From NCBI GenBank assembly GCA_002633005.1, contig NMRA01000013.1:1957751-2021750 (forward strand): a stretch of DNA of 64,000 bases, given 5' to 3'. The stretch is from Phoronis australis (taxonomy: Eukaryota; Animalia; Phoronida). Position 1 is the first letter of the stretch. Each line of letters opens with the position of its first letter. Below the pieces are notes generated by a model. That model was not told the DNA's origin and searched no databases. It was given only the letters and a program-made list of their open reading frames with translations. Positions 8,601 to 37,381 of the stretch are shown here, one piece after another. Position numbers and translations under genes: made by a program.

Positions 8601-11600
8601 ATGGTTTCAAAGGATCGTTTATTGCATTGCATTGCAGTGCTTTGTTTCTCTAGAATGCTAATGATCTTTATGTTGTTAACATCAAAACCATAGCATATAG
8701 TGATACCGCATTTTGTTTGTTCGTGAAATTATATTAAGATGATAAAATCTTACGTATTTTGGACAAAAATAATTGCCTTTTATATTTTTCAAGGGCTTCT
8801 AACATAATGTTATAAATACCCAAACTTTTTTTAAAGAAAAATGTCTCTGTTAGTAGTAACTATGGTCCAGAATTTGAGAAGGCATTATTTTGATACTACA
8901 TAATGTTTAATCATGGAAAAATGAGAAAATAGATTTTCACATGTCTGTCATTGTGTTCTAAATTGGTGAGATTACCTTGGTTCATCAAATCGTCTTATAG
9001 TTTCAGGGTTTTGTCTGGTCGTAACATGTAAGGGTAAAATGAAAACAAGGTGATATTGGAAATTATGGTTTCTGCCTGCTGTACAGACATTCATTGACAA
9101 TTCCGATGCTATTCATGACTTGATATTCACCTGACAACTAGTGTATCTGATCAGAACTAACTGCTGATGAATGCTAGTTGGAGGACTGACTTGAAACAGT
9201 AGTAAATGCTACGCTTGTATCCAGTGGTTTGTGTTCTGCTTTCAGAGACGTCTTGCCGGGGCTGCTAAGAAAGCGATTTCAAAGATTCCTCTTCGAACCC
9301 TCAAGTCGGGTGACATGGTGAGTTCATGATTTTTGTGCTTGCAGGAAATGGGCCTGCCATAATGGGCCTTCCATAACGGGCCTGCCATGATCTGCTGATG
9401 GAGTGAAAACAATCTTGATATGCTCCTGGATCACAAATGTCATTTACAGTGTATTAAACTCTCACTTGTCAAAACAATATTTGATTGGAGCCACTTACTG
9501 TCAGTATTATCTTCTGTATACAGATCAGTTTTGTTGTCCAGGCATGAAAATATCTCACAGTTCATTAGCTCTTTTGTTGTGTTGTCTTAATACATTCTGG
9601 TCTCATTTACCAAGCTATAATCCTGGAGAAAGGGTTCCTGTAATGACAACATCTTGTGTTGCTTATTTGGTTCCATTTTTTCACTTTGCCCTGTAGGAGA
9701 CACTGCCAGACGCTCAGCAGTGCGCTGTATGCATCGAGAATTTCACTGCATCCGAGGTGGTACGAGAGTTGCCCTGCAGGTAAGTGCTGGCGGCTTCCGG
9801 CTTGGCCTTACTTTTAAACGTCGCAGACGCATGACCGTTTAGACCTATATGGCTGCATGTGAAGCTACTCCTCTGAGTTTCAAATTGGGTATTTTGTGTA
9901 ATAGTGGTACCGACCTAAGTAAAAGACAAAAGTAATTTGACAAAAACTGTTTTCCCACCGTGACGGCTAATCTTGTTAACAGCAAAAATTGCCGGTAATA
10001 ACTTTTAAGGCATCAAAATTCTAATTACAGACTGGCGTAGCCACCTCACTAACTATTCTCTTTCTTTCTCGATCTGGAGGGAAGTATTGTGATGATGAAT
10101 TTGCCTTCCGCCCAGCCTTCGTGATGTATAATTCTGGATCATTTTGTCTGAATACTTTTGTCTTGTACTCTGTGTGTCCTACGTACGTCTGATGCAATTT
10201 AGTCATTGGGCTGCCACGTCCAATCTGTTTTTATAGGAAGTGAGATGAAAAACACGCAGGCTTAGGTGAAGTTATCTGTTACAGTAGATGGTGACAATGG
10301 TGTACATTGAGACTCTTGACTGCATCTGTGCCAATGCAGCTACATGCAAAACAATTTCAAGACTTTTTAAAACTTGAGGATATTCATTCACTGTGTATTT
10401 AGTAATAGGGCTTAGGTAGGGTATGGTGAAATCTCACCAGTTAAAGACCCAATATGGTGAACAAGAACATTACGCAGTACCAAATGGACGTTTTTCCGTG
10501 TTCAAATTCTGTAGAACAGACAATATTTTGAGAAAAATTATGGGTGTACGGAGCAATGTAAGAAGCCTTCGAAAGTTGAAAAAATGCTAATTTTGGCAAT
10601 TATTTCTGTCCTAAAGTGGCGAGATTCCACCGTAATTCAATCACCTGTCATGGTAGCTGGGTAAAATTTCCAGTTAAAATGCACCTCCACATGCTAGTGA
10701 AATCTTCAGGCGAAAATGTATGAACTGTGCAGTTTGAAATAATCCTGTAAAATGGAAAATGTTCCTAGTCTTGGTCAGCACACCCATGTCTGGGAGTAGT
10801 GCATATGGTTATTGTTGTCTGTGCTCTGTTCAATATATTTTCCCATAGAATATTAAACCTCTCATTAAGCAAGGGGATATTTGTTTCTAATCTAAGCCAG
10901 AATCACTTTACGTCTCCTTGTTTCATTGCTTGTATTGATTAAGCATTTGTCATCCTCTCATAGCCTTTGTATTTAGTATCACGGAAAGCTGAAAGTAAGT
11001 GGAGATTGAAGAGATGCTGATTTTGCTATTTCAAAAATGGAGAAGTCCAGTTTTATTAGCAATCGTAAAATCCCATTTTTTTTAAACTAAAAAAATCGTT
11101 AATTAATATCTCATAAAAGTGACCTGCCTTACCTTTTCTGCTGAGTTATAGCGCAGGTCTGTTTTACAGATGCTGTGTACCATGTCTGATGTTTCTCAAA
11201 ACCCAAACTAAAATAATAGCACTACCTTTAGAAAGACTGGACAAACTACCTAAACATGTCGTATGCTAAATGATTGTTGTTTGGTTGGAGATCAGAATGG
11301 GTTACTGTTATTTGTTTTGGTAATTAAAAAACAAAAGTATTGTCTGCTACTGAAATATACGACTTCCGTTCAAAGTCTCTTAATTCTGTGTAAGAAGTCA
11401 GATTCTACTCGTTTTCTGTTTTCTCAGAAAACCAGGGTCTCTGTGAATGTCTGAAGTAGCTGTCACTTACAATTAATTTATAATGAAAAAATTAAAGTCT
11501 GTCCACTCATTCATTGTTTCGACGACTTTTACTAGTTTATGAACAAATTTGCTATCGATGTCAATTCTAGAAAAAAATATCAGATACGGAATGTAATCTT

Positions 11601-13830
11601 AAAATCTCGAGACCATGTCACATTGGTTGTGCTCTAACCAGTCGGTGAGTTTCTACTGGCTTGACACCATACGCTAACCGTCATTGCACCGTCTTTCAGA
11701 CATCTATTTCACAAATCTTGCGTCGACCCATGGTTGCTGGATCAGAGAAGTTGTCCTATGTGTAAGATGGACATACTGAAGGCGTATGGACTAACTGTGA
11801 GTTTGATTATTGGGCAGTTCTCAGATGATCCTTTGTTTCCCCTCGCTTCCCTCTGACCTGTATGTTGGCAGGTGGGCTTGATATTTTCTTTGTCTATTTT
11901 CATTTTTGGGATGTACGATGCTCCAAAAATATTGATTTCGCTTTTAACAATTGAAAGAAATCTTTTTTCCAGAATGCAAATACTGGCACGAGGGGAAACA
12001 ACGTAATTTTAATTATACCTTGTTGTGCCATTTCCTGTGATTTGTCACCTGAGAAAACAATTATGACTTTTTGATTTCACTAATTAAATATACTTAGGTA
12101 ATAATTGGACACCTGTGCTTGCGTCAGATTTCTGGGCAGAGCTTGGTTATTAACACCTGTGGCCTGTTTTATCAAATGTTGTTATGTCTAGTCTTAGATA
12201 AGACGGTGATTTAAATTTGCACACAATTCATTAACTTTATGCCTTAATAATGAACATTTGTCAGTTGCAATGTTTTACTATAATAGCATGAATATACACT
12301 GTCATATTTATATTAGTGTGTCTACGGCCATCTTGACTGCAATGGGACTGACGACATTTCGTAAAATGGTCCGCTGGTGTATTGAATAGACTGTGTGTAG
12401 TGTTCTTAGTGGAGAATGAGATTGCTGGGCAGTAAAAACGCATAGGTCATTCTCGTGTTGCGTTGACGATGTGAAACTTAATATTATGCTTGTAAATATT
12501 GACTTTTGGCATCATTTTGAAATGAGAAAACGGCAAATCTGGGTTGCATAAGACACCAAAACGTCTGCATCTGATGTTTTTGGTTATGCTGTCATATCAA
12601 TAACATTGCTTAACTTGAATGACATCATTGTGATCTTTCTAGTTAGTATTTAAGTTTATTTGTAACTCTGGAGAATAGTCCAAATTTGGCCTACTTTAGA
12701 AACATCATTTCTCAAAAATCATTGTTTTCCAAAACACTTTTTATGTGCCTACATAAACATAATATCATGTGATCACATATTGTCATCACTTTGTCCAAGG
12801 GTCTGGATGTGTGTGTCTGCTCAATATCTCATAAACCCCAGATCAGATTTTGTCGAAATTCAGCTTAAGAGTGTAGGGCATCATTAGAATGATTCGTTCC
12901 ACTTCTCAATCTGCCCCGTCCGACCAGGGTCAGGGGGAGTGGCTTTTTACGTAATTTTGGGCAAAGGGCATTTCTGGATGATATCGAAAGTACGTTGTTC
13001 TTGTTGAAATTCTTCTTAAAATGTTCCACTTTTGCTTAAGGGCCATAAAAGTTGGACTTAAGTATTTTCATGCCAAGACCATCATAAGTTGCATTTAGTA
13101 GACCCTAATTATTATTATTAGGTGACTGTAATATGGGTTTTGAGATTTAATCTTGCCAAAAGAAATGCCATATGTTTTCGACAAAGTTGTTTGTAATGAA
13201 TCTGCTTTTCTTTAATTTTTCTTAAAATAAATGACTGTGACTTAATTAATATCTGATAGCTAGGTATTGTAGCATTTCTGCTTGAAGAAGTATGAATTAG
13301 TGCTGAGTCAAATTATACAAGTTTTTAGATAATTGGCTAAATGGACAAATTGTGGATTATGTAATAACCTTAATAACGGAACAAGAACAGTTTATGGCTC
13401 CAAAATATGATTTTGTTTGTATGATTTTGCGAAATGTGTTGCTCAAAACAACACTTTTTGGTCACAGGTTCCTGGTGTGCCGGCTAAGACTGCTACGGAT
13501 GACCCTATCGAGATCACATCAACACAAAGTCCTGAGGATTCAGTTGATCCGATCCGTTCCATACACATGGTTCACGTTGAGTCTGGCGTCATATTCCACC
13601 ATCGGCAAGAGAGCCTTGGCTCTCCCAGCAGTAGCTGTAGGGGTGAACAGTTGGACGTGACGCGAAAACGCAACCCGTCCAGTGATAGCAATGCTAGTCA
13701 CTTGAGCATAAAGTCGCATGCATCGGGTTCCGAGTTGGAGTCATTGATTCACGTCAAGAATGCCTCTTTGAACTGCACCGTTGCTGACCAGGACAGCTCG
13801 GTTATAGCGACAACTCACACGGAGATTTGA
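2607..13830 (+). CDS. RNF150: PA-TM-RING-H2 E3 ubiquitin ligase (goliath/RNF130/RNF150 family), 3' five coding exons; 5' exons lie upstream of the window
   Basis: Exons with AG/GT borders and consistent phases: 2607-2851 (end of PA region plus TM helix [38 protein letters not shown]), 9246-9317 ([24 protein letters not shown]), 9697-9779 (CAVCIENF...VVRELPC), 11700-11796 ([30 protein letters not shown]), 13468-13830 (Ser-rich tail, TGA). The RING-H2 C3H2C3 pattern is complete. Exact paralog name is approximate. Confidence 0.93.
5821..6332. mobile_element. Degenerate foldback/MITE-like long inverted repeat in an intron
   Basis: AAAACTTAGGATTGGTCATGAAAGTCC pairs with GGACTTTAATGACCAGTCATAAGTTTT; inner pairs TTGTAGTGAAAC/GTTTCACTACAA, TTGTTTAGCT/AGCTAAACAA, TGATAGGATT/AATCCTATCA. 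Confidence 0.6.
8050..8290. repeat. Minisatellite, ~59 bp unit x4
   Basis: CAGGGACATTGAA..TGTAACTAT..GGAACTG recurs at ~8054, 8113, 8172 and 8231. Confidence 0.85.
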
Positions 13831-15330
13831 TGACTCTGGAGTTCAACCACTGCATTATGCCGATTTGTGCTATGTTATAAGAGGAGTGTGTGTTGTGGGA
13901 CCTGGGAAACGCCAGAACTCAACTGCAGCATATCGGTGAGCCTGCTTGAGAAGATGGAGCATGTACAAGAGTAGACTGCATCAAGTCTAACTTCACTGAT
14001 TGTTGACTTGTGTGACTGTGTAATCAATGCAGCATTGTATAATAAACATCCCCTAATTATCGATTCAAAGGTGGCAATAATATGAATATTATTTCGCTAT
14101 GCATCTGCCTTCTGGTTTTGTTTGTTACTTGTTGAAATCAAAATGGGATTCTCGTTTTTGTGAGCATAATATGGTTCGTTATGACGCGTAGTTTATTGTC
14201 ACGGAGGATATTGAGTGTTTGGAAATGCTCCGTTTTTAAAAGACCATACCATGTATTGAATTATGATTTCTGTCAATTTTTTTTGCTGAAAATAGTCTTG
14301 AATGTAGACAATTTATGCTAGTGTTCAGCTGTGTAGCCATTCTGTGAGCTTCTTCAGTTAGTTTTACCATTGCTTGATGTCAAGTTTCTTAATTTAAACA
14401 CTCTGTGTTTTAAGCCGAACAGATGAGGTAATTACCCCATGGTAGCTTTTGCCAGGAATAGGCGAACTGCACTTTGGTAATGAACTATTGGATGATTGGT
14501 AGTTTTTTATATTGTGTAAGCCATTATCCATGCAAGAACGGGCTCTAAGTGCTATGGTGATGAGTTTGTGTAATGGTTACGTTGGCATGGCAACATCAAA
14601 GTACCACATATGGATAAAAGCTTTCCAAGCATGAGTGAGAGAAGTTAGGTCTGTGTGCACCTGTGATGTGCTCCACAGAACATGTTTTTTGCAAGTTTTG
14701 TGACGTCAAGGAAGAACACACAAAGTCACTAAATGAAAGGTGAACGTTTCACGTATGCTCGCATTCTCACTAGCGACAATTTGGGGAGGTTGAAAGTGAT
14801 GAATTATAGAGGAATATTCACTGTTACAAGGTACCTCGTTGCGAGTGCCTCGACGAGTGACTTGTGTTAGGGATTGTGATTATCGACCAGTACAGACAAT
14901 TTGAATCTTAGTTTGTTGCATTACAACATTACAGTCAAATTGATGATGGTGGCAAATTTTGAACGATTGTGAAAAACGGGGTACAAAACTGTGATTTTGG
15001 AAATTCATGGAGAAGGCAGGTGCAACCTATAACATACTAATGACGATGTAAAGATTATTTTTTCTATGGATATGACTTTTTGTTAGTTGAAGAACCAACA
15101 CATTTCTTGTTTTTGTTACCTGATATACGTAACTCAGTGGCAACCCAACTTCTCAACTCAGACTAAATCAACTGGTTTAATGTTGATTCTTTCATGATCT
15201 TAAAACAGTTTTCTAATTTGTGGATCACACTGGTGCAGCAGAGTGAGTAGTAATTCTCATGTTGTTTTAGTGAAACTTGTCTGCCACAGGTTTTACTCAG
15301 ATATAATTTACAGATTTTGGTTTTAGTAAC

Positions 15331-15415
15331 TACAGAGGTCCCGCATTTTGAGAACCAGTTTTCTCCACTGAAAAAATGGGCATTAAACTGGTTTTCAAAA
15401 CATGGGGCCCCTGTA
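15331..15415. mobile_element. Tiny Tc1/mariner-like MITE (hairpin) in the presumed 3' UTR
   Basis: TACAGAGGTCCC..TTTTGAGAACCAGTTT pairs imperfectly with AAACTGGTTTTCAAAA..GGGGCCCCTGTA; TA-CAG...CTG-TA ends. Confidence 0.5.
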
Positions 15416-17314
15416 CGTGGCTAGATTTTTCCTACTTGCACTTGCTTCAGTTTGGTAGAAAAATAGAGAGAGTTGAGAAATATGAGCTTCTCAACCATGA
15501 AAATACTTCACCACTGTGATGTGTCTTTTCACTTAAGTTTATAAAAGTGCCCTTGGCTGTCAAACTATCAGTCAAAAAGAACTTAGTTGTGATTGATATC
15601 CTTTTTCAATAATTGGACACAAATTGTTCTTTACTTGGGTCAAAAGTTATCCTAGGACACAGGATAAAGTGAGTCATTTCTCCATTCCTGGCTCGGTACA
15701 TAAACTTTGATTTGCAAGGTCAAACCAATACTGAGCCTGATCTCTTGCAAAAACGAACTCTGATATTTCCTAATCAGATACCTAACATTGAAACAAATTT
15801 TATTACAAATTCGAAGTTAATGAAGTAAATTATTTTCATATATGGTAGGGGACTTTATAACCAGGCTTCATCGGTAAATCATTGGTGTTTTGAGACTATA
15901 AGGTGATTTTCCACTCAGTTGTTGATTTAATGTGAACAAGTTTTGTCTTCTCTGGTATTGCTCAGTTTAGTTTCATTTCTTGTTTTTGGTCACCAAGCTT
16001 CAAGTAGATCTTGATGTGTTATGTTTGTGAGTGTTCAAACTGATAGAAGAAATTTGCTTTTTACTCTAAACATTGGTTGTTGCAACAGTTACTATGGGGG
16101 TATTAGTCACGAGGTGTGAAATTGTGACAAATTTGTGTGTGTGTTTACATATCGAGCTATTTTTTGGGTTTATGGTAAACGTTTTTGTTAGGGTCACTAC
16201 AGACAGAAAGCTATGAGCTCAGCTGTCTGGCTCAAGTGAATGATTGCTGAGTTGACAGCAAGTATGACCAGTTCTTTCAGTTGTATTTTCTCACTCTGAC
16301 ACAAGGTGTCAGTTCAGCTATTGTTAACTTTTGGTAGACAGCTTGGCTCATTGCTCCCTGTCTTTGTTTTGGGTGGATTGCACGTCCTCGTTATTGTGCT
16401 CTGGAAAACTCATTTGGAATATGTGTCATCCATGACCATTTTAATATTTCACTTATTGAAGTGCAAGGTCTGTGTTATCAATACGCTATGATAATTGAAT
16501 GTTCATTTCATATTTGGCAGACTTGTAAACCATTTTTCTTTTATGCATATAGTTAGCATTTTCTGAATGCTTTTTTCTAAAGGGTAAATACAGATAGTAC
16601 ATGTATTTTGGAAAGCTTATTGTTAATATTGTCATGATTCTATGTGCACACCATTTAAGGCTGCTGTTGGGTTTGAGTTGTACAAGGTTAGTTCAAATTG
16701 ACGAATAGCGTGCCCCCATCATGTACAATCACATTTATGTGTTGTTTCACAAACTTATAAGTAAAAAACCTGTGTTCCGTTGAAAAAAATAGAAACTTAT
16801 ACCATTTACAACTATAAAATTGGTCTCAACTTCTTTTTATTCAAACGAAAAGTGATTCTTGGTATTACAAAGAACTTACAGTTCGTTACTCCTGAAGACC
16901 ATGCTTGTCACCTAGAATGACACACTGTAACATGTTGTCGTTTAGAGGCTGAGGCTCTAGCTCAGTATCCAGTGAAATCCTTGAATGTTTCGGGCACGTT
17001 TGTTGAAAACCAGCTTCATTTCTGTTCATGGATGGAAATGAAAGAGAACTTGGCAAAACCTTGTTCATTTCAAAAGAAGAGGTATTTTGCCTCTCTGGAA
17101 TTCACATTTTTGATATTCAATTGTAAATATGAATGTTGAAACATTAGTCGTTAGAATTTGAAAAAAAATGGCTTTTTATTTCAAAGTTTTTGATTTTGCT
17201 TCCAAAAATCCCATACTTAATTTCTTCACAAGTGACAGGGCCTGGACTAAAGATAAGGAAGTGTTTTGTTTTTGTGATGTTATTGATAGTCATATGTAAT
17301 GAAATTTATATTGA

Positions 17315-17320
17315 AATAAA
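17315..17320 (+). terminator. Candidate polyadenylation signal of the RING E3 gene (alternative AATAAA at 14041-14046)
   Basis: AATAAA followed by TG/T-rich sequence at the end of a ~3.5 kb T-rich stretch; strand skew flips to A/C-rich shortly afterwards. Confidence 0.4.
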
Positions 17321-17830
17321 TGTGTTGTAAAATTTTAATGCATTGATTATTTCTCAGTGCTTCATGAAGACACTCCATTAGGTAGATTACTGTGATAAAA
17401 AATTAATACTGTAAGTTCTTAAATAATATCACAGAATGTGGAATTACCGGTATAATTGGTCGAACTACAACCATGACTTGTGCAAACCATTTTAATATAG
17501 ACCTAATTTTCCTAAATTTCAGTTTTGTTTAGAAATTTTGCCAAAAAATTCTATTTGCTGTATTACAGTGAAGGTTTTCTACCCGAACCAGTTTGAGTTC
17601 CAGTTCGAGTGCCGTGGGCATTAACCCGTACGAGTACAGCATGTACCTTAATGTTGGACCTATTTGCACCCATCTCTGTATACTGGTTTGTCACTTGGGT
17701 CACTGATTTCTCGAAACATTTTCATTTACCGTCATTCGGCTCAGATTCAGAGAAAAAAGTTCCTTCTAGTACAACAAAAATATCTTCGGTTCAAATTCTG
17801 GCAGTGACTAATGACTGACCAGCATTTGTC

Positions 17831-17876
17831 TCTGACCTGATGATGGTTGAGAAATGCTCAATCGAAACGTGCAGCA
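17831..17876 (+). ncRNA. Degenerate type I hammerhead ribozyme motif, probably from a Penelope-like element remnant
   Basis: CTGATGA (17837-17843), stem II GGTTGAG/CTCAATC, then GAAAC (17864-17868); stems I and III are imperfect. Confidence 0.4.
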
Positions 17877-19329
17877 TATTGTATTGAGGTTTGTGCAAAT
17901 AATAATAATACCAAACTGAATTACATATAAATTTTTAGTGATCATAAACATCTTCTGCACACAACTTATAAAGTAACCCACACACACAATAAACTACCCA
18001 AATTATGCACGGAATGTTTATTTTCCAACATATAAATCAAAAATGACGGAGTACAAAAATAATTAACATCAAATGATGCGTACAATGAAAAGCTGGACTA
18101 ATTCACAAGAAGGAGCTAATGAAACAACAGTAACAACTGTATTAGAGCATAGTTACATGCAAGTGGTCGCCTGCCACCACTGCTGCCCCCTGCTGTTACT
18201 GTGGGTCCTAAATGACTGCACTTGATTGACTTGTATCTCCGGATCACCTGGCTAAGTTATCTGATTGGTTTCCATGACAACTTCTGGCTTACAGACCAAT
18301 AAGATGCTTTATTAAGCTCTTGACCCAGCGGAGCTGACAAAAACGGTTGGTTCTGATCTAAGCATTTTTTGAAAACTGACATGATGGCACAGTAATTTTT
18401 AGGGTTCCTGATTTTCAAAAAGCCAAAATGAGTTGAGATCTCTTTTTACTGGTGCCACCTGATGCCACATAGACCAGGATCCTTTTGAGGTAAAAAAATG
18501 CCAGGTCATTATCCTGGAATACCGAGCAAATTCTTTCACAAAAACTAGCTTAGATACTCAAGTGTAGCTTTTGAAAGAAAAAGATGAGCTTTGCAAAGAG
18601 GACGCTGGCAGGCTTTTTTCGTTAACAGCAGTTTTCAAAGAGTAGAGCACAGACCAGACCAAAAAGAAGCTATTGGCCTCTAGTGCCATCTATTGTAGTA
18701 AATGTGAAGTCGTCCACTGAAATCACTAACATGACACGAAACTGACTGGCTAGCTGTCTCTGAACTCCAAATACTTCAAGTAACAGTAAAATCTCACCAA
18801 TTTCAGAGAAAATAATTACGCTTCTTACGTAATCACATACAACTACAACAACTGAGAACTACTATTTTACTTGTGTAACAATTGTGTCCAAAATTGGTGA
18901 GAATCTACAACCAACAAGTATTCACAAAATAAACAATTATTGTGATTAGACTTAAGAAACAGGCCAATACCTAGAAAATTAGTTTTGACTGAATAAGCCA
19001 ATTCCACAAAAATCATGTACACATAAAATTTCAATCACATAAAATTTCAATCATCCAACAAATTTAAACAAAAAGTGTCCACTGAAATGTACCCCATGAA
19101 ATGTAATAAAATTGACCAATCTTTCCCTGAAAATTCTATGAAATATCGTACTATTAACAAATCTGCAGTGACTGATCATGCTCTTGGTTTTTAGACATGT
19201 AATCAACAGGAATGATGCTCGTCCTGTTGAGTCTCAAAGTTCTAAGATTAACTGGTTGTGGAAAAAGAAACCAAAAGTCACTTTTAGACAAGGCACCACG
19301 TGGGGGGATCCCAGTGGTTAAACTACTCT

Positions 19330-19390
19330 GATTGGTCCTTATAATGAGGATCTTCTCTATATATAGGGTAGAAGACTCTAGTTTATACAA
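19330..19390 (+). promoter_or_regulatory. Viral left promoter P1 (putative)
   Basis: E-box CACGTG at 19297-19302, inverted CCAAT (ATTGG 19331-19335), TATATATA at 19358-19365; splice donor AG|GTAAGA at 19492 downstream. Confidence 0.5.
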
Positions 19391-19483
19391 CGCAACAGAT
19401 AAGTGAGGGCAAGGATTTCAAAATCAACGCGAAGTAAAGATTAAATAAGAATAACCGATACTTGTTGCTATCGCAACCGCGGA

Positions 19484-19518
19484 TATATAAGGTAAGACAT
19501 ATAAAATATTATTCAGTT
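19484..19518 (+). promoter_or_regulatory. Viral promoter P2 for the PLA2 ORF (putative)
   Basis: TATATAA at 19484-19490 with consensus initiator TCAGTT at 19513-19518 (A is 31 nt from the TATA start); ATG at 19523. Confidence 0.55.
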
Positions 19519-19522
19519 GACT

Positions 19523-20113
19523 ATGCCTCACATACCAGGACACAACTATATAGGACCTGGCACTGATTTAAGTAAGCAGTTACCTGCTGTAGATAGAGAC
19601 GACGAGATTGCTAGTACACACGATCATTTGTATAACAGTGCAACAAGTGAGGAGAAGGTGAGAAACGCTGATGTACGAGCGATAGGTGAGTTTACTAGTG
19701 ACTTCTTAAATACTGGAAATGCACACAGTGCTGTTGGAGCATTAGGTATTGGCGCAAAATATATCGTTGAAAGTTTTACAGGAGTGAAATATCCTCAAAT
19801 GTCAAAGAAAAAAGAACGTGATTTTGCTTCAAAAAAACTAGACTGGATTCAACAAGCAAAAGAATATGAAAAAAGAGGACAATATTACGGACTAAGACCA
19901 TCAGGCAATTATTGGCCTAACGGAAATCCAGTAACAAATCCTCAGGAAAGGATTGCAATTCAGACAAGAGCGGAAGAAAATAGACGTCGAGGACGATCTG
20001 GTCAGCCATTATTACCAATGCTTCAACAACCTGGAAAACCAAATTGGGATCCTCAAAATTGTGAAGAAATACTTGGTAAGTATATTTTTTCTATATTTAT
20101 AGATGGAGTCTAA
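19523..20113 (+). CDS. Parvoviral phospholipase A2 (VP1u-type) ORF
   Basis: Ca-binding loop PGHNYIGPG, catalytic helix DDEIASTHDHLY, AD motif, and densovirus-type continuation TGNAHSAVGALGIGAK..E..GVKYP, followed by basic KKKER. Intact; strong donor G|GTAAGT at 20076. Confidence 0.92.
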   Translation: MPHIPGHNYIGPGTDLSKQLPAVDRDDEIASTHDHLYNSATSEEKVRNADVRAIGEFTSDFLNTGNAHSAVGALGIGAKYIVESFTGVKYPQMSKKKERDFASKKLDWIQQAKEYEKRGQYYGLRPSGNYWPNGNPVTNPQERIAIQTRAEENRRRGRSGQPLLPMLQQPGKPNWDPQNCEEILGKYIFSIFIDGV

Positions 20114-20666
20114 AGTAATCGATCTAACTGCTCGTGAGGACAGTGACCAATACTTTGTGGTTCTTTCAAAGGAACACCTGTCTATCCAAAGAGATTTAGA
20201 CGAATTTTATGGAAACAACGGACAAGACCAAGAATGTCCTCAGAAACTGGACATATCAGCGACAGCTGCGAACGACATGGCGGAAACAATACAACTAATG
20301 ATGACGTGGGCATCTTGGCCAAACGTAGTACACGTGACGGAGATCGAAACGGGGATCAGCAGCGTCAATCTGAAAACAATACAAATACACAACAAGATGG
20401 CAGTGCAGGACACCACAATGAGACCAATGATGGAACACTGGCTGGAAATGATTCCGACATCGAAATGGTACAGGCAGCGGAGGCTTTTGACACCGGGAGA
20501 AATATCGAAAACAATGCAAGTCCTAGCCAGGAACGAAAGACTACTGGACAATCGTATATTGAAGAAGACAGATCCGAACAAGAGACGACAAAGTTCTTCT
20601 TCGGTGGAGGACACTCAACGCGACCACAAACGTACCAAACAGAACAATACAACGCAGAACAAGTAG
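20103..20666 (+). CDS. Viral accessory ORF overlapping the NS1 5' end (positionally p15/NS3-like), 187 aa
   Basis: ATG directly follows a pyrimidine-rich acceptor TTTTTTCTATATTTATAG (20102). The ORF is open and sits where chaphamaparvoviruses have p15. No sequence motif recognised. Confidence 0.65.
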   Translation: MESKVIDLTAREDSDQYFVVLSKEHLSIQRDLDEFYGNNGQDQECPQKLDISATAANDMAETIQLMMTWASWPNVVHVTEIETGISSVNLKTIQIHNKMAVQDTTMRPMMEHWLEMIPTSKWYRQRRLLTPGEISKTMQVLARNERLLDNRILKKTDPNKRRQSSSSVEDTQRDHKRTKQNNTTQNK

Positions 20667-22690
20667 AAACTGTAATGCGTACACACTGTATTGATCAATG
20701 GAAATCACTTGTAATTGCATTTGAGGATAAACATGAAAATTGTGACAGAGATATATTAGACGTAGTTAAGGAGATAGGAGCCTTAAAATACAAATCAGTC
20801 GTCGTTAAAGAAATTAGTCAACACGACGTAGTACACTTTCATATTATGATAAATTCATTTCAGCGTATTGACAATTTAAAACGTCAAATATCACAACATG
20901 TTTGGTCGAATGGTTCTCACAACTACATCATGAAATATATCAAAGCAGAATCTGTCAGAAATTTCACCTCATTATTCAAATATATATGCAAAGATATTCA
21001 TCAAATGTATAGTACTAACAACGATTTACTTGACTGTGCAGCCTAGTTTCAAACACCTGAAACAAACAAATTCATGACAAAACCTCAAAAGAAATCACCA
21101 AAAGAAATCATCAAAGATGAAGTCATTGAAAAAATGACCTCAACTGGTGTATATAATTTTGAGGACTTATGTCGTATAGATCAACAGTGGATGAGATATA
21201 GACTGCACATTCATGGTTTTCAAACACTGATTGACAATTGTCGTAGATTTGTACCCACTGTTAAGTCTAGTGAAGACGATCTATTGAGTAGATTTAAACA
21301 TGTTGCACCATCTACAACTTGAGCTGATAATATCCTCAGATATCAAGGTTATGACAAAGCGCAACGAATGCATATTTACAAAAATCTTGCTAAAATTCTA
21401 TCATTTGCAAATGGCAAAGTCAATACAATTTGGTTAAACGGTCCTGCAAACACTGGCAAAAGTTGGTTCGCTAGAGGTATAACAAAATGCTGGGGCTCAG
21501 ATGTAGGTGAAGTATTACCAGAAACTCCTCAATTTATGTGGGGACCATTGGTAGGCAAAAAAGTTGCACTTTTGGAAGAAATATATTTCAACACAGAATC
21601 TACTGAAAGAGCCAAAGTTATCCTAGAAGGTCAACCATGCAAAGTGAATGTAAAAGGAAAACAATGCGAGGACATTAGAGGTATGCCTGTAATTATAACC
21701 AGCAATCATAACCTATGGAGATGGGCAGACGGAGCAGAACAACCAATAATGGCAAGAGTATTCAAAATTATGTTCACTAAACAACATGTTGAAACTTCCA
21801 GACGAAGTAACACCTGTGAGCCATCGGGAAATGTTAGTCCGGGAGACTCCTTCAGCCAGACAACGACTAATTCCACTAACAAGAGGACAAAGACACCAAG
21901 CAGAAGCGGCAGCAACAGCTCGAGATATGGTGATAGAGATAGCACCAAACGTAGGCGATGTGAGGATGGACATGGTAAGAAACGTAGATTCAATGTTGAC
22001 AAGCTCAAGGACTCTCGCAAAGATGTCGGAAATGTTGACATTAGAGGATTCTACTCCATTAGAGGAGAACACTTGTACGGGACAAGTGGGACAAGACACA
22101 CACAGTACAGAATTGGCCCGGACGAATGCGATGAACGATGCTCAAGCGGCACCTCAACCGCAGTTGACGGGACCAGAAACACCGTGGAAAAACACGGATC
22201 CGGCACTACCGTCTCTACAAGAGAAATCATCAGCAACACAACTCAGATGCAACCTGGGCGACCAAGAAATGACACCTCAACAACGTCCGGAACCTTCCGC
22301 CTTACACCTAGCACACAACTTTCACGAACAAATATCCTCAATATCTGGGCTGAACGAGGAAGAGATATTACAATGGATAGAAGATGTACAGATGATGTGA
22401 ACAGCGGAAGGAGGAGATCAAACGGGGGAACCTCCGACAAAGAAACGAAAACAACTACAAGCTCTGCCGCTAGCAGTGGAAGATCTGCTAGTATCTGCAT
22501 CAACAGTAATGCTATTTCACAAGAGTCTGAAAGGAAAAATGACACTTGCGTCGAAGAAGTGCACAAGAGCACAACGTCGAGTACTGGACATGGTTCACGA
22601 TCACGTCGCATCATTGCTAAAGGACGAGAAACACTTGGGAGTGTAGAAAGCTTTCTGAGTGCATTATATCATATACATTCGCGCGAGTAG
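20234..22690 (+). pseudogene. NS1: Parvoviral NS1/Rep (818 codons) interrupted by two in-frame stops
   Basis: ORF-track pieces 20234-21046, 21074-21322 and 21368-22690 are in one frame, with stops TAG 21044-21046 and TGA 21320-21322. HUH motif VHFHIMI, YxxK motif KYICK, Walker A GPANTGKS, Walker B ALLEE, B' KVILEGQPCKVNVKGK, motif C PVIITSN. Confidence 0.93.
21786..22646 (+). pseudogene. NP/NS2-like ORF overlapping the NS1 C-terminus in another frame, with one probable premature stop
   Basis: 204 aa open to TGA 22398-22400. The same frame then stays open for 81 more codons (includes NLS-like PPTKKRK) to TAG 22644-22646. Position matches the chaphamaparvovirus NP ORF. Confidence 0.7.
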
Positions 22691-22705
22691 GAGGACGAAA
22701 CCAAG

Positions 22706-24283
22706 ATGCCGACACAGATATTTAAACATTCAAGATCTGTATATCTGAAAGAACGGGAAAAACCTTATAACAAACAAGCATTCAACGCAGACTGTTACTG
22801 GAGTTATATTCCAAATCAATCACCAGCACTATTCAAAAATTTTGGTGAGCTATTTGCAACAATCAAATCTGCAAGAAGATGGAGAATCCTCAGTATAAAA
22901 GGAACATTGTCTAACATGGTACCACTGCAACAGAAACTAACAATTGGAGGACAAGAAACCATGAACTTGTTCAACAACGCGTACTACTTGATGTGCTATT
23001 CAGATGACCTCAAAGAATGGGTACACTGTAAGTACGATAAAACAAGAGACCTGTACAGCAATGGATGGCAACCTGGTTTTTTCACAGATGGATGCACGTA
23101 CGATCAAAACGGAACAAATGTTAAGAGACTGCTGTTTCCAACAATGCCAAAATATATTCCTCCACCAGGTTTTTTCGAACTAACGAAATACATGAGACCA
23201 GATCCTCTAAGACATCCAGAGAGAATAGGAGAACTAAGACCAGGTAAAAACTCCTATACATTTTCTTTCAAATGGGACCACAGCAAAACACCTGGTGAAG
23301 GATGGGTAGACATGTACTGCAGAGCAAACGTATGGTCAAACAGAGGACAAATAGCAGGAGAAAACATATCGATAACTTACGACGATCCAAATCTATACAG
23401 AATACCAGAATGTTTTGAACCTAAAACTCAGGCGCTATCAGACGACAGAAACTATACAAATGAAACAGATACAAACGAATTGGAATGGCAACAAAGCATG
23501 AAATGGCAATCGAAATCTTTCACCAAACTAGTATTCGGAGCGAACTCAGGCGTTATATGGGCACAAGCAGAAAAACACCAACAACCAAAACAGTTGGCAA
23601 AAGCAAAACAAAATTACGAGTGGCTTAAAGCACGAAAATACGGCGACAGAAATCACCAAGCTGAAGCATTTGCCTATGGAGGAATCGGAAGTTATGAGCC
23701 TCCAGACACATGGATGATATCATTTCCACTACTTCTAGACGGAGACAACGCATCGATCAAATTATCAGCGCAAGCATTCTATCAATCAGAATGCGTAATC
23801 GAATGGGAACCACTGTCACATGACAAACATACAAACTTATATCCAATAAACAGTCAACTCCTATGGTCAGCATTCGAACACAAAATCCGACGATACACCA
23901 ATACAGGAGATGCAGCATTGTTAAACTGCGTCGACTTCATGCCAATGAACAGAAACATACAGATCAACTCAGCGGCTATTCCAGGACACAATCCAGCAAC
24001 ACATGAAGGCGTCAATATAAATTACGAAACACGATACTTAGAAGTACCACAATACGACAGTGTCGGAGGACATATCGGCGTAGCAAACACAACATTAGGT
24101 ACTAGTAAGTGGATACATGATAACAAAGCTAATACAATTTCTTCTAATAAACGAAGACTGTCTACTAAGGACGTATTCACTGAACAGAAACCAGAAGCTA
24201 AAAAATGCAACAACAGCGATTCAGATCACGATGGTTCAGACTGCACGAGCGACGACCAGGGCAGCGAACATGGAGACCACTAG
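22706..24283 (+). CDS. VP: Major capsid protein, chaphamaparvovirus-like, 525 aa, intact
   Basis: Motifs WSYIPN, SNMVPLQQKLTIGGQETMNLFNN.YYLM.YSDDL, DPLRHPERIGELRPGKNSYTFS, P.TWMISFPLLLD match chaphamaparvovirus VP signatures (WHIIPN, NP.P.T.QLAIQG...FTAFNN..Y...Y.D.L, WDPL..P..I.ELRPGKNA..F). No N-terminal PLA2 and no Gly-rich stretch. Confidence 0.9.
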   Translation: MPTQIFKHSRSVYLKEREKPYNKQAFNADCYWSYIPNQSPALFKNFGELFATIKSARRWRILSIKGTLSNMVPLQQKLTIGGQETMNLFNNAYYLMCYSDDLKEWVHCKYDKTRDLYSNGWQPGFFTDGCTYDQNGTNVKRLLFPTMPKYIPPPGFFELTKYMRPDPLRHPERIGELRPGKNSYTFSFKWDHSKTPGEGWVDMYCRANVWSNRGQIAGENISITYDDPNLYRIPECFEPKTQALSDDRNYTNETDTNELEWQQSMKWQSKSFTKLVFGANSGVIWAQAEKHQQPKQLAKAKQNYEWLKARKYGDRNHQAEAFAYGGIGSYEPPDTWMISFPLLLDGDNASIKLSAQAFYQSECVIEWEPLSHDKHTNLYPINSQLLWSAFEHKIRRYTNTGDAALLNCVDFMPMNRNIQINSAAIPGHNPATHEGVNINYETRYLEVPQYDSVGGHIGVANTTLGTSKWIHDNKANTISSNKRRLSTKDVFTEQKPEAKKCNNSDSDHDGSDCTSDDQGSEHGDH

Positions 24284-24957
24284 TACTATTTGACGGAATC
24301 GCCAGAAGTGAACTCAACACTGAGTACCGACGCAAACGATGGAACCAATTAAAAGACTTTGTTAATAACACTATTGTACCTAGATATGGCAATAACGAAG
24401 AATACACTGCCTTCATTGTGCATGATTTTTGGAAAGAACAAAAAAATGCAATTGAGGATATTGTCAACCAAACTTGTAATCCAGATATATATAGACGAGT
24501 ATTGATATACGTATCAGATATGATATACTATGAACACGGTTCAATGTGGAACTATTATATGTTCAACATATTTTATGAGGACATTGAAAATTTCTTACAA
24601 CATGTAACTAAAGAAATTAGACACGATGTAGCTACAATATTTAGAACATTAACAAAGTGTGAAGCTGTATTTATAGATGAAGACTTACCAATACATGTAA
24701 TTGATGAAATGATAGATGATATTATATGGAATAATTCTGTAACTTTACTCAGTAGATTGAAACAGAGATTGAGGAACAAATATAATTACCACTCAAGAAA
24801 CTTTGGGGTGCGAATGATCAAAATCGTACGCAATTGGTCCCTTCGTGACTGTTTCTATCATAGAAGAACAGGACGTCGATTACATGATGATGCTGTAGTA
24901 GATAGATACTTTGAACTAGATGAGGACATTTACAGACATATTAACCGGAGAGTTTAA
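24205..24957 (+). CDS. Orphan viral ORF downstream of the capsid, 250 aa
   Basis: Intact 753-nt ORF overlapping the VP end by 79 nt and ending 44 nt before AATAAA. Viral-like base composition; Arg-rich termini. Confidence 0.7.
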   Translation: MQQQRFRSRWFRLHERRPGQRTWRPLVLFDGIARSELNTEYRRKRWNQLKDFVNNTIVPRYGNNEEYTAFIVHDFWKEQKNAIEDIVNQTCNPDIYRRVLIYVSDMIYYEHGSMWNYYMFNIFYEDIENFLQHVTKEIRHDVATIFRTLTKCEAVFIDEDLPIHVIDEMIDDIIWNNSVTLLSRLKQRLRNKYNYHSRNFGVRMIKIVRNWSLRDCFYHRRTGRRLHDDAVVDRYFELDEDIYRHINRRV

Positions 24958-25001
24958 TAGTTTATCTTTGTAACTGTATGAATTGTACTTGTATGGATTC
25001 T

Positions 25002-25007
25002 AATAAA
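25002..25007 (+). terminator. Viral polyadenylation signal
   Basis: AATAAA after the last viral ORF, preceded by repeated TGTA elements. Confidence 0.7.
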
Positions 25008-25176
25008 AATTGTCCTCACTCTAACTGGCCTTGTATATACATGAGTCTTCCACACTAATTAATTATATGACGTCAAAATGACATCACAAGTCACATGATC
25101 CATGTGTTTCTTTAATCGGGCTCCCGTGGCGCCATCTAGCGGTTCTACGTCATGTATATATTCCGTCTATATTATC

Positions 25177-25231
25177 GGTCAAAGGTCATCTGCTTAAGCG
25201 CGGTTACCGCGCGAGCGGATGACCTTTGACC
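25177..25231. repeat. Parvoviral right-terminal hairpin (telomere remnant)
   Basis: GGTCAAAGGTCATC (25177-25190) is the perfect reverse complement of GATGACCTTTGACC (25218-25231). Inner stems GCT/AGC and GCGCGG-TTA-CCGCGC with an asymmetric TAA/G bubble. Confidence 0.85.
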
Positions 25232-25807
25232 AAAGTAAAAGTTGGCTTGAATGTAGCAGTTCAAAATGCCCACTGCAAATACCCAGAAAGTAAAGGTTCA
25301 CATAGCACATGTAAGCATGCAAATGCATTGTTGAATAATTTGATCTGCATCCGCAGTCACTGAATATTCATTTCATAGAACTGTCAAGCTACCTTACTGG
25401 TTAACACAATGTTTGAGGTTAACCCTGTAGCCAAAACACTGGATTTATTACATAAACAGCCTAATTGTCAACAAAACATAACCATAACATATTTTTGCGA
25501 ATCACATGTCTTGGTGCAGCATTACTAAGCCAAAGCAGACCTTCATGAATCATTTAATCCTAGAAAGCTAGAAAACACAAAGTTTGAGGTGTATAGACAA
25601 TACGAGGGATTGTCAGAAGCTATCCAACAGAATATAGTTGTGCTTTTAATTAAGTTTGTGTTAACGAAGGACTGCTACGTAACTATACTGATTAAAAAGT
25701 CTGCTTAATTTTGATTAGAAATTCATCAAAGGCTAATTTTGTGCTCTCATTACTTCCATGACAAAGAAAGGTGTGGTAACATAACGAATCCTAATGGGAA
25801 ATGAAAG

Positions 25808-26086
25808 GTGGAAAGGCAAGCACCCTCCATGAGGGTAAAGGCAACAACACCAGGTGGACATCGCTGTAAGATGTTCTGCCCTCCACCTAGCTTTGTCTAT
25901 ACGCATCTTGGGAGCAGGACAAAAAAGCAACGACACAGCGGCTTCAAGATGACAACATGTGATTACGTGGAGAAGTTGCTGTTGAAAGCAGACCAAGATA
26001 GTGTGCAATTCAAGGGAGTTGTCAGCGACAGTTATTGGTCAAAGTATTCTGTTGTTGGCAAAATTGATGTGTTGCAGGGCAAATGG
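25808..26086 (+). pseudogene. Transposon SWIM zinc-finger ORF remnant, 5' half (continues at 38911-39020)
   Basis: ..VQFKGVVSDSYWSKYSVVGKIDVLQGKW joins in frame to CKHVGALLF after the second (TG)n. LLEYKESG..IPEDIVWTSQERAWG follows after a frameshift. Confidence 0.6.
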
Positions 26087-26654
26087 TGTGTGTGTGTGTG
26101 TGTGTGTTTGTATTTGCGTCAAAGTCAGGACCTAAACTTGTTCGCACACCAACGACGTGAGGACTTTTTTCAAAGTCAGGACTTGCACTCGAGTCCTCAC
26201 ATCGACATGGCTATTTTCCTATAATTTACGATGCCACTTTTCAAAATTTGTATTTTTGAGAACGTCCCCAGATAGTCGGAAAAAATCTAACCTTGAAACA
26301 CACGTAGCACTGTTTCATCTGCCTTTGTGTTCATGCACACTATTGACTGAAAATTGTGCTTAAAGTTAACCAATAGCAAGACGCCATACAATGGTCATAC
26401 AATGCAGCCAATCAGAGAAGCCGATAGAGATCCCAATGTAAGGTGTCGCTTCAGTCGTTAGCAAATGGTTGCCAGCATGGCATCTCGAGGAAAGATGTTG
26501 GTAAGTTTTGTACTTCTTGGAAAGGATGACTTTTAAGGAATCTCCCGTGAACTATGCAAGTAACTTCAGTTCTAGCAAATCTTCTTATGCATGTCATACT
26601 TAGACATAATCTCGGACTATGAAAGGTCCATTGGTTGGTAATCTCGCTGCTCTC

Positions 26655-27543
26655 CACACCTGCCAACCCATTTTTGTTGAAAAGAGGTAGGTTTGCTAAT
26701 TACTGCGCGTGTGCCGAAGGCACACGCGTATCTAGGGGGGTCCGGGGGCATGCCCCCCGGAAAATTTTAGAAAAAATGAAGCAAAATGGTGCAATCTACT
26801 TCATTTTAAGACCACAATTAAGTGAAGAATTTAATCATATTTTGGAGAGAAAAAAACAAAACTTCACAATGAAACACATCACAACTCTTTTATTTTTGGC
26901 TGTTTCGTTGAGCAGAAAGCCGAAGTGATTTTCGACGTACCCGCGACCGCGCGACTGTTCCCAACGTGCTTGTCCGTTTTTGCATTGCGTGTCGTGCAAC
27001 GTCAAAACTGCCGCCGTGATAGAAAAGTCACAGCGGCAATTGTTGCAATAGGCATGTTCCTCGCCTTTGCGGGATGGCTTGACAAAACTGAACTGGCTTT
27101 CCAAACTTTTTTATACTTGTTCGTCCACCGTTTCTTTTTTCTCTGGTGTTTCCATCATAGACCCTTTGGCACTTGTACCAGACGAGAAAGAAGCGACCAG
27201 ACGAAAAAGTACTTGTTGTTCATTAATTGGTCGAAACTTTGAAGGTAACATGCTGACAACCAATCGCCGACGAGATAAGAAATCAAGACTGTACATCATC
27301 CGGGCCTCCCATATAGTTTTGATATCGTCCGTTTGGCTTCGCTAAAGTTTGTTTTAGAAGTTTTTGCAGGAGCGCAGCGGTGTTACAGTGACAAAAGCGA
27401 GAATAAAGCGGACAAGATAACTTTTTATTTTTCACCAACAGCAATTTTCAAATGCGGTAGGTTTAACTACTAAAAGCGGTAGGCGTTGAAAGTGACCCAA
27501 AAGCGGTAGGCTACCGCGAAAAGCGGTAGGGTTGGCAGGTATG
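26655..27543 (-). mobile_element. Non-autonomous hAT (hAT5-like) element with BED-finger remnant
   Basis: 15-bp TIRs CACACCTGCCAACCC / GGGTTGGCAGGTATG (1 mismatch), 5-bp TSD CTCTC on both sides, subterminal GCGGTAGG repeats, minus-strand FVKPSRKGEEHAYCNNCRCDFSI. Confidence 0.8.
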
Positions 27544-36381: not shown

Positions 36382-37381
36382 TTGATACAGCGATTATTTT
36401 TTTGCATTGACAAAGGTTAATTAAACCGAAATATTTGCTCTAATTTTCTGTCTTTTCTTTTTCTATTTGATTTCGACACTCTAGCAATCTCTGGGAGTAG
36501 TTAATTCAGTTTCATAGGTTATGAAAAATTATCCCTCGGTGATTAATCCCCGAGAAAGCATCAGTTATGGGAGAAATTACATTTCCTCAAATGGTAACTG
36601 AAAGATGCTGTACCACATTAATTAGGCGTTTGTTTACAAATTTAGAGGTTACTAATGTTGTCTTGTTGATGGAACTTCATTTATAATACAGAATAAGTTA
36701 TTTAAGCACTTGCGCTTTTTATTGGTCTTGCCTTTTCACAAGTCACCTCAGTCCCAGAAGCAATAAGTTGCCAGAATTATTTACACACTGTATCTGACTT
36801 CTTAAAATAAGTGAAACACAATTTTGTTCACAGCAATGTTTTTACTCATACTTTTGTCTGTGTGGAAAAACATACTGTTTTAAAAATGAAAGTAAAAAAC
36901 TCGTACACTTGTACACAAGATTTCATTTTTTTTAGAAAGAACTGTTTCAGTGTGACAAGAAAATATCTTCCATCTCCTTGTTATTCATCTCTGATTGAAA
37001 ATTACCATAACATATCCAGTGGTGAAAATTACTGTAACGACGTACTTCTCCAGTGGTGGTGACCCATAACTATACCTATACTATAGTGTCATTTCACTTA
37101 TCAATAAGCATTGCATTTGTAACCAAAGACAACTGAAATACTGGTGGCACAAATCTTAACTGGTATGAAGCAAATTTTCTTTGACATTTAAATTACGGCA
37201 ACAATACAACCTTTGTAAACCTTTGACGGGTGTCTACATTTTGTTGAAACCATTTTCGCTTCAAAATTGCCTTGTTCATGAAAATGTCCTGGAAATAGTA
37301 CAAAAATCTCTGCAGCATCATTTTAAAATTGAATTTACCTAAAAAATATTGAATTTAGGATTCATATTCCTTAAACACTGA

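What the first reader, a model, noticed from the sequence alone, without database searches (positions are those of the whole stretch)
19358..21802. Nested promoter and splice design that would skip PLA2 or fuse it in frame to the NP-like ORF
Seen: donor AG|GTAAGA at 19492 overlaps the second TATA region, and acceptor TTTATAG at 20102 is immediately followed by ATG. A P1 transcript spliced 19492-20102 would drop the PLA2 ORF and start at the p15-like/NS1 ORFs. The second donor G|GTAAGT at 20076 is only 27 nt from that acceptor, too short for a normal intron. It is phase 1 and matches a phase-1 acceptor CACTAAAC...CTTCCAG|AC at 21801 in the NP frame, rebuilding GAC. The AGs just before VP (22690, 22693, 22705) are phase 0 and would not fuse. 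Inference: a PLA2-NP chimera of ~465 aa once the 22398 stop is repaired, rather than a classical VP1.
Basis: inference. Interest (0 to 1): 0.78.

Follow-up and report, generated by a model that had tools for sequence, protein, structure and literature searches.

The report
Fossil parvovirus splicing phospholipase onto NP
A broken, integrated copy of a chapparvovirus-like virus in an animal genome carries its membrane-cutting phospholipase gene in front of the replication genes, and its splice signals likely joined that enzyme to the non-structural NP protein instead of the capsid, although host RNA covers this copy almost only in antisense and shows no such junction.

Summary
They lie in a 5.9-kb integrated parvovirus (19290-25231) with a hamavirus-type capsid (PDB 9NEK, E 3e-13), an intact densovirus-type PLA2 ORF 5' of NS, and stops in NS1 and NP. 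The splice plan has the same layout as the mapped plan of mouse kidney parvovirus: D1>A1 onto an abutting ATG, a second donor about 30 nt before A1, and that donor joined to NP. A distant relative (P0001, 46% identical) keeps the donor's G-K-Y signature and a pyrimidine-rich tail, and loses two competing donors. The NP acceptor is the weak link: it scores as middling, and no junction read exists. Three stranded RNA runs cover the element almost only antisense, so they cannot test it. A PLA2-first ORF ending in a donor is already in print for 'megaparvoviruses' (PMC13426907), with its partner unassigned. Verdict: new variant of a known design; PLA2-NP fusion about 0.5, stand-alone PLA2 about 0.3. 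As the DNA stands the fusion frame is 383 codons; 465 counts through the stop at 22398.

The parts
19290..25231 (+). Integrated parvovirus-like element, 5942 bp
   Evidence: A contig of run X8 joins 19289 to 25232 (39 letters on the short side, 'between: not known'); X1 DNA contigs bridge both junctions at depth 7.2-8.5, like host flanks
19328..19337 (+). Reverse CCAAT box (NF-Y consensus, recalled) upstream of P1
   Evidence: 6 matches in the window against 1.64 expected
19358..19366 (+). P1 TATA box; no clear initiator; no ATG from 19370 to 19491
19484..19518 (+). P2: TATATAA plus initiator TCAGTT (A at 19515, 31 nt from the TATA), 8 nt before the PLA2 ATG
   Evidence: 2 such pairs in 64 kb, 0.58 expected (11 of 100 shuffles reach 2); this one sits directly before the first viral ORF
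19492..19497 (+). Donor D1 (5' UTR, overlaps P2)
   Evidence: joint top score among 251 GTs
19523..20113 (+). PLA2 ORF, 196 aa, intact calcium-loop and HD motifs; PLA2 domain about residues 1-92
   Evidence: PF08398 29.3 bits over cutoff 23.9; model pLDDT 74.5 matches densovirus VP1u models; P0001 46% identical over 182 columns
20076..20081 (+). Donor D2, phase 1, read as G-K-Y in the PLA2 frame, in a low-confidence tail (residues 167-196)
   Evidence: G-K-Y aligned in P0001
20081..20102 (+). Pyrimidine tract and acceptor A1, abutting the ORF2 ATG
   Evidence: rank 1 of 404 AGs
20103..20666 (+). ORF2, 187 aa, in the position of chapparvovirus p15; no family match
20234..22690 (+). NS1 frame (818 codons counted from ATG to final stop), broken by stops at 21044 and 21320
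   Evidence: PF01057 85.2 bits; stops; length
21750..22646 (+). NP-like overlapping frame, 216 codons, stop at 22398, then 81 further open codons; own ATG at 21786
   Evidence: no Pfam match for the first piece and only weak sub-cutoff hits for the second; no Atlas hit above 0.80 for the first piece
21780..21801 (+). Candidate acceptor A2 (phase 1 in NP frame); alternative phase-1 AG at 21756
22669..22705 (+). Candidate acceptors A3 before VP (22690, 22693, 22705; all phase 0)
22706..24283 (+). VP, 525 aa, hamavirus-type, no PLA2
   Evidence: PDB 9nek_A E 3e-13, query 32-194 on chain 34-181; 9NEK occurs in the SsChPV capsid paper; Atlas capsid clusters 0.95
24202..24957 (+). ORF6, 251 codons, no family match; AATAAA at 25002 follows
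25177..25231 (.). Right terminal hairpin, ending exactly at the junction
   Evidence: z -10.0, 0 of 200 shuffles

Best explanation
This is a broken, integrated copy of a hamavirus-like parvovirus whose ancestor likely used the chapparvovirus splice plan with a captured densovirus-type PLA2 ORF as first exon of the NP (NS2) protein. Shown: integration, ORF order, intact PLA2 ORF, hamavirus-type VP, motifs and phases, antisense-only RNA over this copy. Inferred for the ancestral virus: (1) P1 transcripts splice D1 19492 to A1 20102, skip PLA2 and give ORF2 and NS1 by leaky scanning; the join puts an A at -3 of the ORF2 ATG. (2) P1 transcripts spliced D1 to A3 likely give VP, since there is no TATA near VP. 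(3) P2 transcripts start 3' of D1, read the PLA2 ATG first and use D2 20076. D2 is too close to A1, so it would join the NP acceptor in frame, giving a non-structural PLA2-NP protein. (4) Unspliced or D2>A3 P2 transcripts would give a near stand-alone PLA2 as a side product. The host now transcribes the copy as part of an unspliced minus-strand RNA, so none of these products is shown to be made today.
For: MKPV, mapped by RNA-seq and RT-PCR: donors 433 and 487, acceptor 520 abutting the p15 ATG; the second donor lies 33 nt before that acceptor (27 here) and joins NP as NS2 in 18-22% of counted reads. The TATA-Inr of P2 starts 3' of D1. P0001 keeps G-K-Y at the aligned place while the residues just before it differ. 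GK[YC] occurs 20 times in 59,385 residues of the 150 hits. P0001's last 8 residues rank 1 of 187 windows for expected pyrimidine content. The competing donors 19658 and 19686 fall on residues that cannot carry GT in P0001 (V>I, G>Y). Of 333 AGs 3' of D2, 19 pass a loose acceptor filter and leave 100 or more open codons; only 21801 lies at the start of a reading frame. VP Met aligns within a few residues of the start of the SsChPV chain, whose authors exclude N-terminal domains in this lineage. Megaparvovirus PLA2 ORFs also end in donors.
Against: No junction read at 19491/20103 or 20075/21802 in four runs (one search lists all 3 joints found; one search hides 10 weaker joints). The reads are antisense, so this neither supports nor refutes. 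X4 contigs run unspliced across D1, D2 and A1 (19148-21241) and across A2 (21256-26078). A2 is a mediocre motif (8 of 16 pyrimidines, rank 73 of 404 with 71 ties), and NP has its own ATG in a good context. P0001 is a single protein; its DNA and its NP were not seen. In MKPV the same donor goes more often to the VP acceptor (38-49%), and one paper says MKPV's upstream exons are in frame with VP. G-K-Y-like tails also end 7 of 85 short PLA2 hits (one search listed 8; P0078's match lies in the PLA2 core), which suggests a general first-exon donor and does not name the partner. NP homology to chapparvovirus NP and NS1 placement were not testable.
Confidence: 0.5

Rival explanations
1. The PLA2 is a stand-alone non-structural protein, as proposed for AdSDV vpORF3: made unspliced from P2 (196 aa), or by D2>A3 with only a few extra residues. 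NP is made separately from its own ATG or by D1>A2.
For: The ORF is complete with its own promoter and P0001 has the same length. After a D2 join at the A3 AGs only 5-10 codons stay open. NP has an ATG at 21786. AdSDV's PLA2 was absent from capsids.
Against: No AATAAA or ATTAAA lies between 19440 and 23845, so an unspliced PLA2 mRNA would carry several kb of 3' sequence. A phase-1 donor kept in P0001 fits an in-frame join better. The tail after D2 is explained as the A1 tract.
Confidence: 0.3
2. The PLA2 ORF is a distant VP1-unique exon spliced to VP (classical VP1, as in split-VP densoviruses): through donor 19658 (phase 0), through AG 22790, or because the phase before VP changed after integration.
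For: 19658 scores 8 of 9 and is in phase with the A3 AGs. The nearest PLA2 relatives are densovirus VP1 N-termini. The copy is decayed, and X4 shows a 1-base insertion behind 20712. MKPV's D2 mostly joins A3.
Against: A cut at codon 46 removes D50, F57 and K79, invariant in 30 aligned sequences, and that donor is not kept in P0001. 22790 lies 28 codons inside VP and would drop its first strand (inference). Hamavirus and megaparvovirus capsids are described as lacking N-terminal extensions.
Confidence: 0.12
3. D2 and A2 are chance motifs, or D2 joins another frame (ORF6, or inside NS1 or VP).
For: D2 scores 7 of 9 with 10 other GTs; 18 other loose acceptors leave long open frames, two of them in ORF6.
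Against: G-K-Y and the pyrimidine-rich tail are kept at 46% protein identity; the spacing matches MKPV; the other acceptors lie deep inside their ORFs.
Confidence: 0.08

Closest known systems
Mouse kidney parvovirus and other chaphamaparvoviruses (PMC6999912, PMC6631224)
   Same: Two upstream donors and three acceptors; first acceptor abuts the ATG of a small ORF that overlaps NS1; second donor about 30 nt before that acceptor; NP overlapping the NS1 C-terminus and made as a two-exon NS2; acceptor just before VP. My hand translation of the 21-nt MKPV A2 site reads P-F-I-C-R across the AG, the same spacing as P-I-M-A-R at AG 21756 here.
   Different: Here the first exon is a 184-codon PLA2 protein; there are two TATA promoters (MKPV is TATA-less); the element is 5.9 kb against about 4 kb; there is an extra ORF6; the host is probably an invertebrate (recalled resemblance, untested).
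SwaBA-MePV-1-like 'megaparvoviruses' and their beetle EVEs (PMC13426907, 2026)
   Same: 5'-most PLA2 ORF with a donor at its end, second ORF of unknown function, NS1, hamavirus-like VP of 504-577 aa without PLA2 (525 here).
   Different: The sections read describe no NP overlap and name no splice partner; their NS1 is 561-611 aa (818 codons here); they are likely homotelomeric, while the two ends here share at most 8 nt; ORF6 here lies 3' of VP. Their Fig. 5 and sequences were not seen.
Syngnathus scovelli chapparvovirus (genus Ichthamaparvovirus; PDB 9NEK, PMC12115719)
   Same: The only solved structure that matches VP by sequence (E 3e-13); Met in near register.
   Different: 364-residue chain against 525 aa; hamaviruses are described as lacking PLA2.
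Acheta domesticus segmented densovirus vpORF3 (PMC10267136)
   Same: Densovirus-derived PLA2 ORF outside the capsid gene, under its own promoter, non-structural.
   Different: Bipartite genome; the PLA2 ORF lies 3' of VP and is spliced to a small upstream ORF, not to NP.

Membership tests
Hamavirinae (formerly Hamaparvovirinae) / chapparvoviruses | NS1 with SF3 helicase | tested here: met
   PF01057 85.2 bits, cutoff 20; PDB Rep/NS1 E 1e-11 to 1e-12
Hamavirinae (formerly Hamaparvovirinae) / chapparvoviruses | Capsid homologous to hamavirus VP, starting at the jelly-roll without a VP1u | tested here: met
   9nek_A E 3e-13, query 32 on chain 34
Hamavirinae (formerly Hamaparvovirinae) / chapparvoviruses | NP frame overlapping the NS1 C-terminus | tested here: met
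   1 stop in 298 codons against 18 expected; met by position only, homology not shown
Hamavirinae (formerly Hamaparvovirinae) / chapparvoviruses | p15/ORF1 homologue | not testable with these tools
   ORF2 has the position and a basic C-terminus; no p15 sequence was available to compare; no Pfam hit
Hamavirinae (formerly Hamaparvovirinae) / chapparvoviruses | No PLA2 domain; genome about 4-4.5 kb | tested here: not met
   PF08398 passes cutoff; element 5942 bp
Hamavirinae (formerly Hamaparvovirinae) / chapparvoviruses | Monophyly and identity threshold in NS1 | not testable with these tools
   No hamavirus NS1 was retrieved (searches found nothing)
SwaBA-MePV-1-like megaparvoviruses | 5'-most PLA2 ORF with a splice donor at its end | tested here: met
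SwaBA-MePV-1-like megaparvoviruses | Second ORF homologous to their conserved unknown protein | not testable with these tools
   ORF2 is in that position; their sequences were not retrieved
SwaBA-MePV-1-like megaparvoviruses | Hamavirus-like VP of 504-577 aa without PLA2 | tested here: met
   525 aa
SwaBA-MePV-1-like megaparvoviruses | NS1 of 561-611 aa | tested here: not met
   818 codons counted from 20234 to 22687, across two stops
SwaBA-MePV-1-like megaparvoviruses | Homotelomeric inverted terminal repeats | tested here: inconclusive
   Longest shared word between the ends is 8 nt, but the left end folds weakly (z -1.9) and may be truncated
SwaBA-MePV-1-like megaparvoviruses | Member of their NS1 clade | not testable with these tools
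   No reference sequences on hand

The most novel reading that the evidence does not exclude
A lineage of invertebrate hamavirus-like parvoviruses captured a densovirus VP1-unique exon, with its donor, and plugged it into the first-exon slot of NS2. That makes a PLA2-NP fusion under its own promoter: a third place for the parvoviral phospholipase, neither on the capsid nor free. The same may hold for the megaparvoviruses, whose PLA2 donor has no assigned partner, and it would tie NP/NS2, whose function is unknown, to membranes (entry in trans, egress or nuclear-envelope passage).
Probability: 0.45. Interest if true: 0.7.

Novelty: new variant of a known kind. Interest (0 to 1): 0.5.

Why it matters
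Hamaviruses are described as lacking PLA2, and how they leave the endosome is open; NP/NS2 has no known function. A 2026 paper found PLA2-first genomes with a donor but no partner. This element predicts the partner by site and phase, and the prediction can be checked on existing genomes of relatives. The element is also a near-full-length, apparently young insertion with a candidate empty allele and antisense transcription in three samples, which is useful for work on endogenous viral elements. The splice plan itself is known.

Tried and rejected
No RNA holder was listed among indexed runs. The genome search: no genome held. The search for homologous proteins found nothing for VP or the NS1 C-terminal piece, and only P0001 for the two-sequence C-half profile among 862 longer candidates. 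Four scans of viral contigs (NS1 helicase, VP, PLA2, P0001) found no relative. The one metagenome scan gave L001, which is bacterial pur-gene DNA and was dropped. Single-sequence fold of VP failed (pLDDT 30.9). PLA2 model: no PDB match at E 0.001. PLA2 tree of 71 rows (window plus 70 best hits; the other 80 left out), quick method only, was unresolved and did not group the window with P0001; not used. Atlas gave no lead for NP. None of the 9 element frames or the C-half query matched any of the 150 hits except PLA2 C-half with P0001. Four look-ups of earlier findings were empty. Seven paper searches listed no title or abstract start describing a PLA2-NP/NS2 fusion; only the eight papers named in the full report were opened. 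The zander parvovirus paper (parts 1-2 of 3) was not relevant. Rejected: episomal contamination (both junctions bridged in DNA); expression of the viral genes from this copy at a level these runs would show (strand is opposite).
Full report
What is there. The finding lies at the left end of a 5942-bp parvovirus-like element. One contig of run X8 joins 19289 to 25232, the right end is a 55-nt hairpin that stops exactly at 25231 (0 of 200 shuffles), and DNA contigs of X1 bridge both junctions at the depth of the host flanks, so the element is integrated. On the plus strand it carries a PLA2 ORF (19523-20113, PF08398 above cutoff), ORF2 (20103-20666), an NS1 frame with an SF3 helicase (PF01057) broken at 21044 and 21320, an overlapping NP-like frame broken or ending at 22398, VP (22706-24283) and ORF6. 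VP matches one solved structure, 9NEK, at E 3e-13; that code occurs in the paper on the pipefish chapparvovirus capsid. The PLA2 domain is densovirus-type: its best long relatives carry Denso_VP4 and its model matches densovirus VP1 models.

The observation. On a crude count against recalled consensus motifs, acceptor 20102 is the best of 404 AGs, donor 19492 ties for best of 251 GTs, donor 20076 is in a group of 11 one step lower, and acceptor 21801 is ordinary (rank 73, 71 ties). The fusion frame is 383 codons as the DNA stands; 465 counts through the stop. Chapparvovirus NP is about 220 aa, close to the 216 codons before the stop, so the stop may be native; the 81 open codons after it argue for a lesion.

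Promoters. P2 is TATATAA at 19484 with an initiator TCAGTT whose A lies 31 nt downstream (2 such pairs in the window, 0.58 expected, 11 of 100 shuffles reach 2, so the support comes from its position just before the first ORF). It starts 3' of donor 19492 and 8 nt before the PLA2 ATG, so P2 RNA cannot skip PLA2. P1 has a TATA at 19358 and a CCAAT box at 19328 and no ATG before the donor, so P1 RNA spliced at 19492 skips PLA2 cleanly. These promoter readings are inference from motifs.

RNA. Three 2026 RNA runs (18-19% of each read) cover the element at mean depth 0.1-9 per bin with the first mate on plus, against 0-1.0 on minus. The host's plus-strand spliced gene has its junction reads all with the first mate on minus (14-49 reads per joint), so the element's RNA is antisense to the viral genes. 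The small sense signal is largest over 19806-20106 in X5 (depth 1.0). One search lists all three joints found in 18000-27000, none at the proposed sites; one search hides 10 weaker joints. X4, which behaves as RNA, holds the element as unspliced contigs. With next to no sense RNA, these runs cannot test the model. hide 51 and 66 difference rows, so I cannot say that all three stops are shared by all samples.

Comparative test 1: MKPV. In PMC6999912 (outline, sections 6, 8, 9, 14, first part of 16, and Table S4 read) donors lie at 433 and 487 and acceptors at 520, 2108 and 2775. The p15 ATG abuts acceptor 520. Donor 487 lies 33 nt before it and joins 2108 to make two-exon NP (NS2; 18-22% of counted reads) and 2775 to make VP RNA (38-49%). 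The element has the same layout with 27 nt, and the PLA2 ORF occupies the place of NS2's first exon. NS2 peptides were not detected even in MKPV.

Comparative test 2: P0001. Among the best 150 of 559 hits, P0001 is a 194-aa protein from a 5,592-nt contig, 46% identical and the only one that matches the C-terminal half. Both proteins end in G-K-Y and a short tail. In the window G-K-Y is the donor itself, and the tail is the pyrimidine tract of A1. P0001's tail ranks first of 187 windows for expected pyrimidine content. The two competing donors fall on residues that differ in P0001, and a cut at 19658 would remove three residues invariant in 30 aligned PLA2 ORFs. D2 lies in the low-confidence tail of the model. 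This supports D2 and A1 as selected sites. It is one protein, its DNA was not seen, and it does not name D2's partner.

Which partner. Of 333 AGs 3' of D2, 133 leave 100 or more open codons and 19 of these pass a loose filter; only 21801 sits at the start of a frame. Joins at the pre-VP AGs close after 5-10 codons. Against a classical VP1, VP's Met is in near register with the SsChPV chain, whose authors exclude N-terminal domains across the lineage (PMC12115719, passages). For it, PMC6631224 (passages, sections 9 and 10) says MKPV's upstream exons are in frame with VP, and this copy is decayed.

Prior art. PMC13426907 (passages, sections 17, 18, 22, supplement search and Table S5; Fig. 5 not seen) describes 'megaparvoviruses' and beetle EVEs with a 5'-most PLA2 ORF ending in a donor, a second unknown ORF, NS1 and a hamavirus-like VP without PLA2; the sections read name no splice partner. 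PMC10267136 (passages) describes a non-structural PLA2 in AdSDV. PMC9896142 and PMC11357303 (passages) state that hamaviruses lack PLA2. PMC8964545 (parts 1-2 of 3) was not relevant. Seven searches listed nothing on a PLA2-NP fusion; subscription papers, figures and preprint supplements were not seen and could hold it. The element works like a chapparvovirus in its splice plan and resembles a megaparvovirus in gene order; I file it in neither, because each has a tested feature not met and NS1 placement could not be tested.

Verdict. Real feature, known design, new combination. My estimates: D1>A1 about 0.85, D2 a used donor about 0.8, NP as its in-frame partner about 0.5 overall. Interest 0.5; 0.7 if the PLA2-NP fusion is shown in an intact relative.

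Noticed in passing
window 17700-25200, minus strand: [quoted passage not shown]
   Followed up: partly
window 19289/25232: Candidate empty site in one 169-nt contig of X8; both junctions carry GAC next to the break and no target duplication is visible. It may be an empty allele or a paralogous repeat.
   Followed up: partly
window 20712: X4's contig has one base put in here, inside NS1: a second allele with a further break. X4 is labelled DNA but holds spliced host joints, so it is probably RNA.
   Followed up: no
window 24202-24957 (+): ORF6, 251 codons, intact, no Pfam match, overlaps the VP end; how it is expressed is unexplained.
   Followed up: partly
window 22401-22646 (+): The NP frame after the 22398 stop holds a basic, NLS-like stretch (label recalled), which favours a lesion over a native end; P about 0.007 for 81 open codons at the stop rate.
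   Followed up: partly
window 2594-17500 (+): Host transmembrane RING-finger gene (goliath/RNF130-150 type, name recalled, not from a call); spliced joints 9316>9696, 9776>11697, 11796>13468. Its wording looks invertebrate, possibly mollusc-like (recalled, untested).
   Followed up: partly
window 31933-32132 (+): SET-domain exon, PF00856.
   Followed up: no
window 56525-56776 and 61622-62023 (-): Protein kinase exons, PF07714; a 27-nt tandem repeat lies at 61771-62067.
   Followed up: no
window 38705-38775: Perfect 32-nt inverted repeat within a cluster of palindromic repeats, with further arms at 37373-37407; possibly a transposon end.
   Followed up: no
window 24022-24024: Three adjacent letters differ in most RNA reads of X5-X7, on both mates' strands; allele or mis-laid reads, not resolved.
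   Followed up: no
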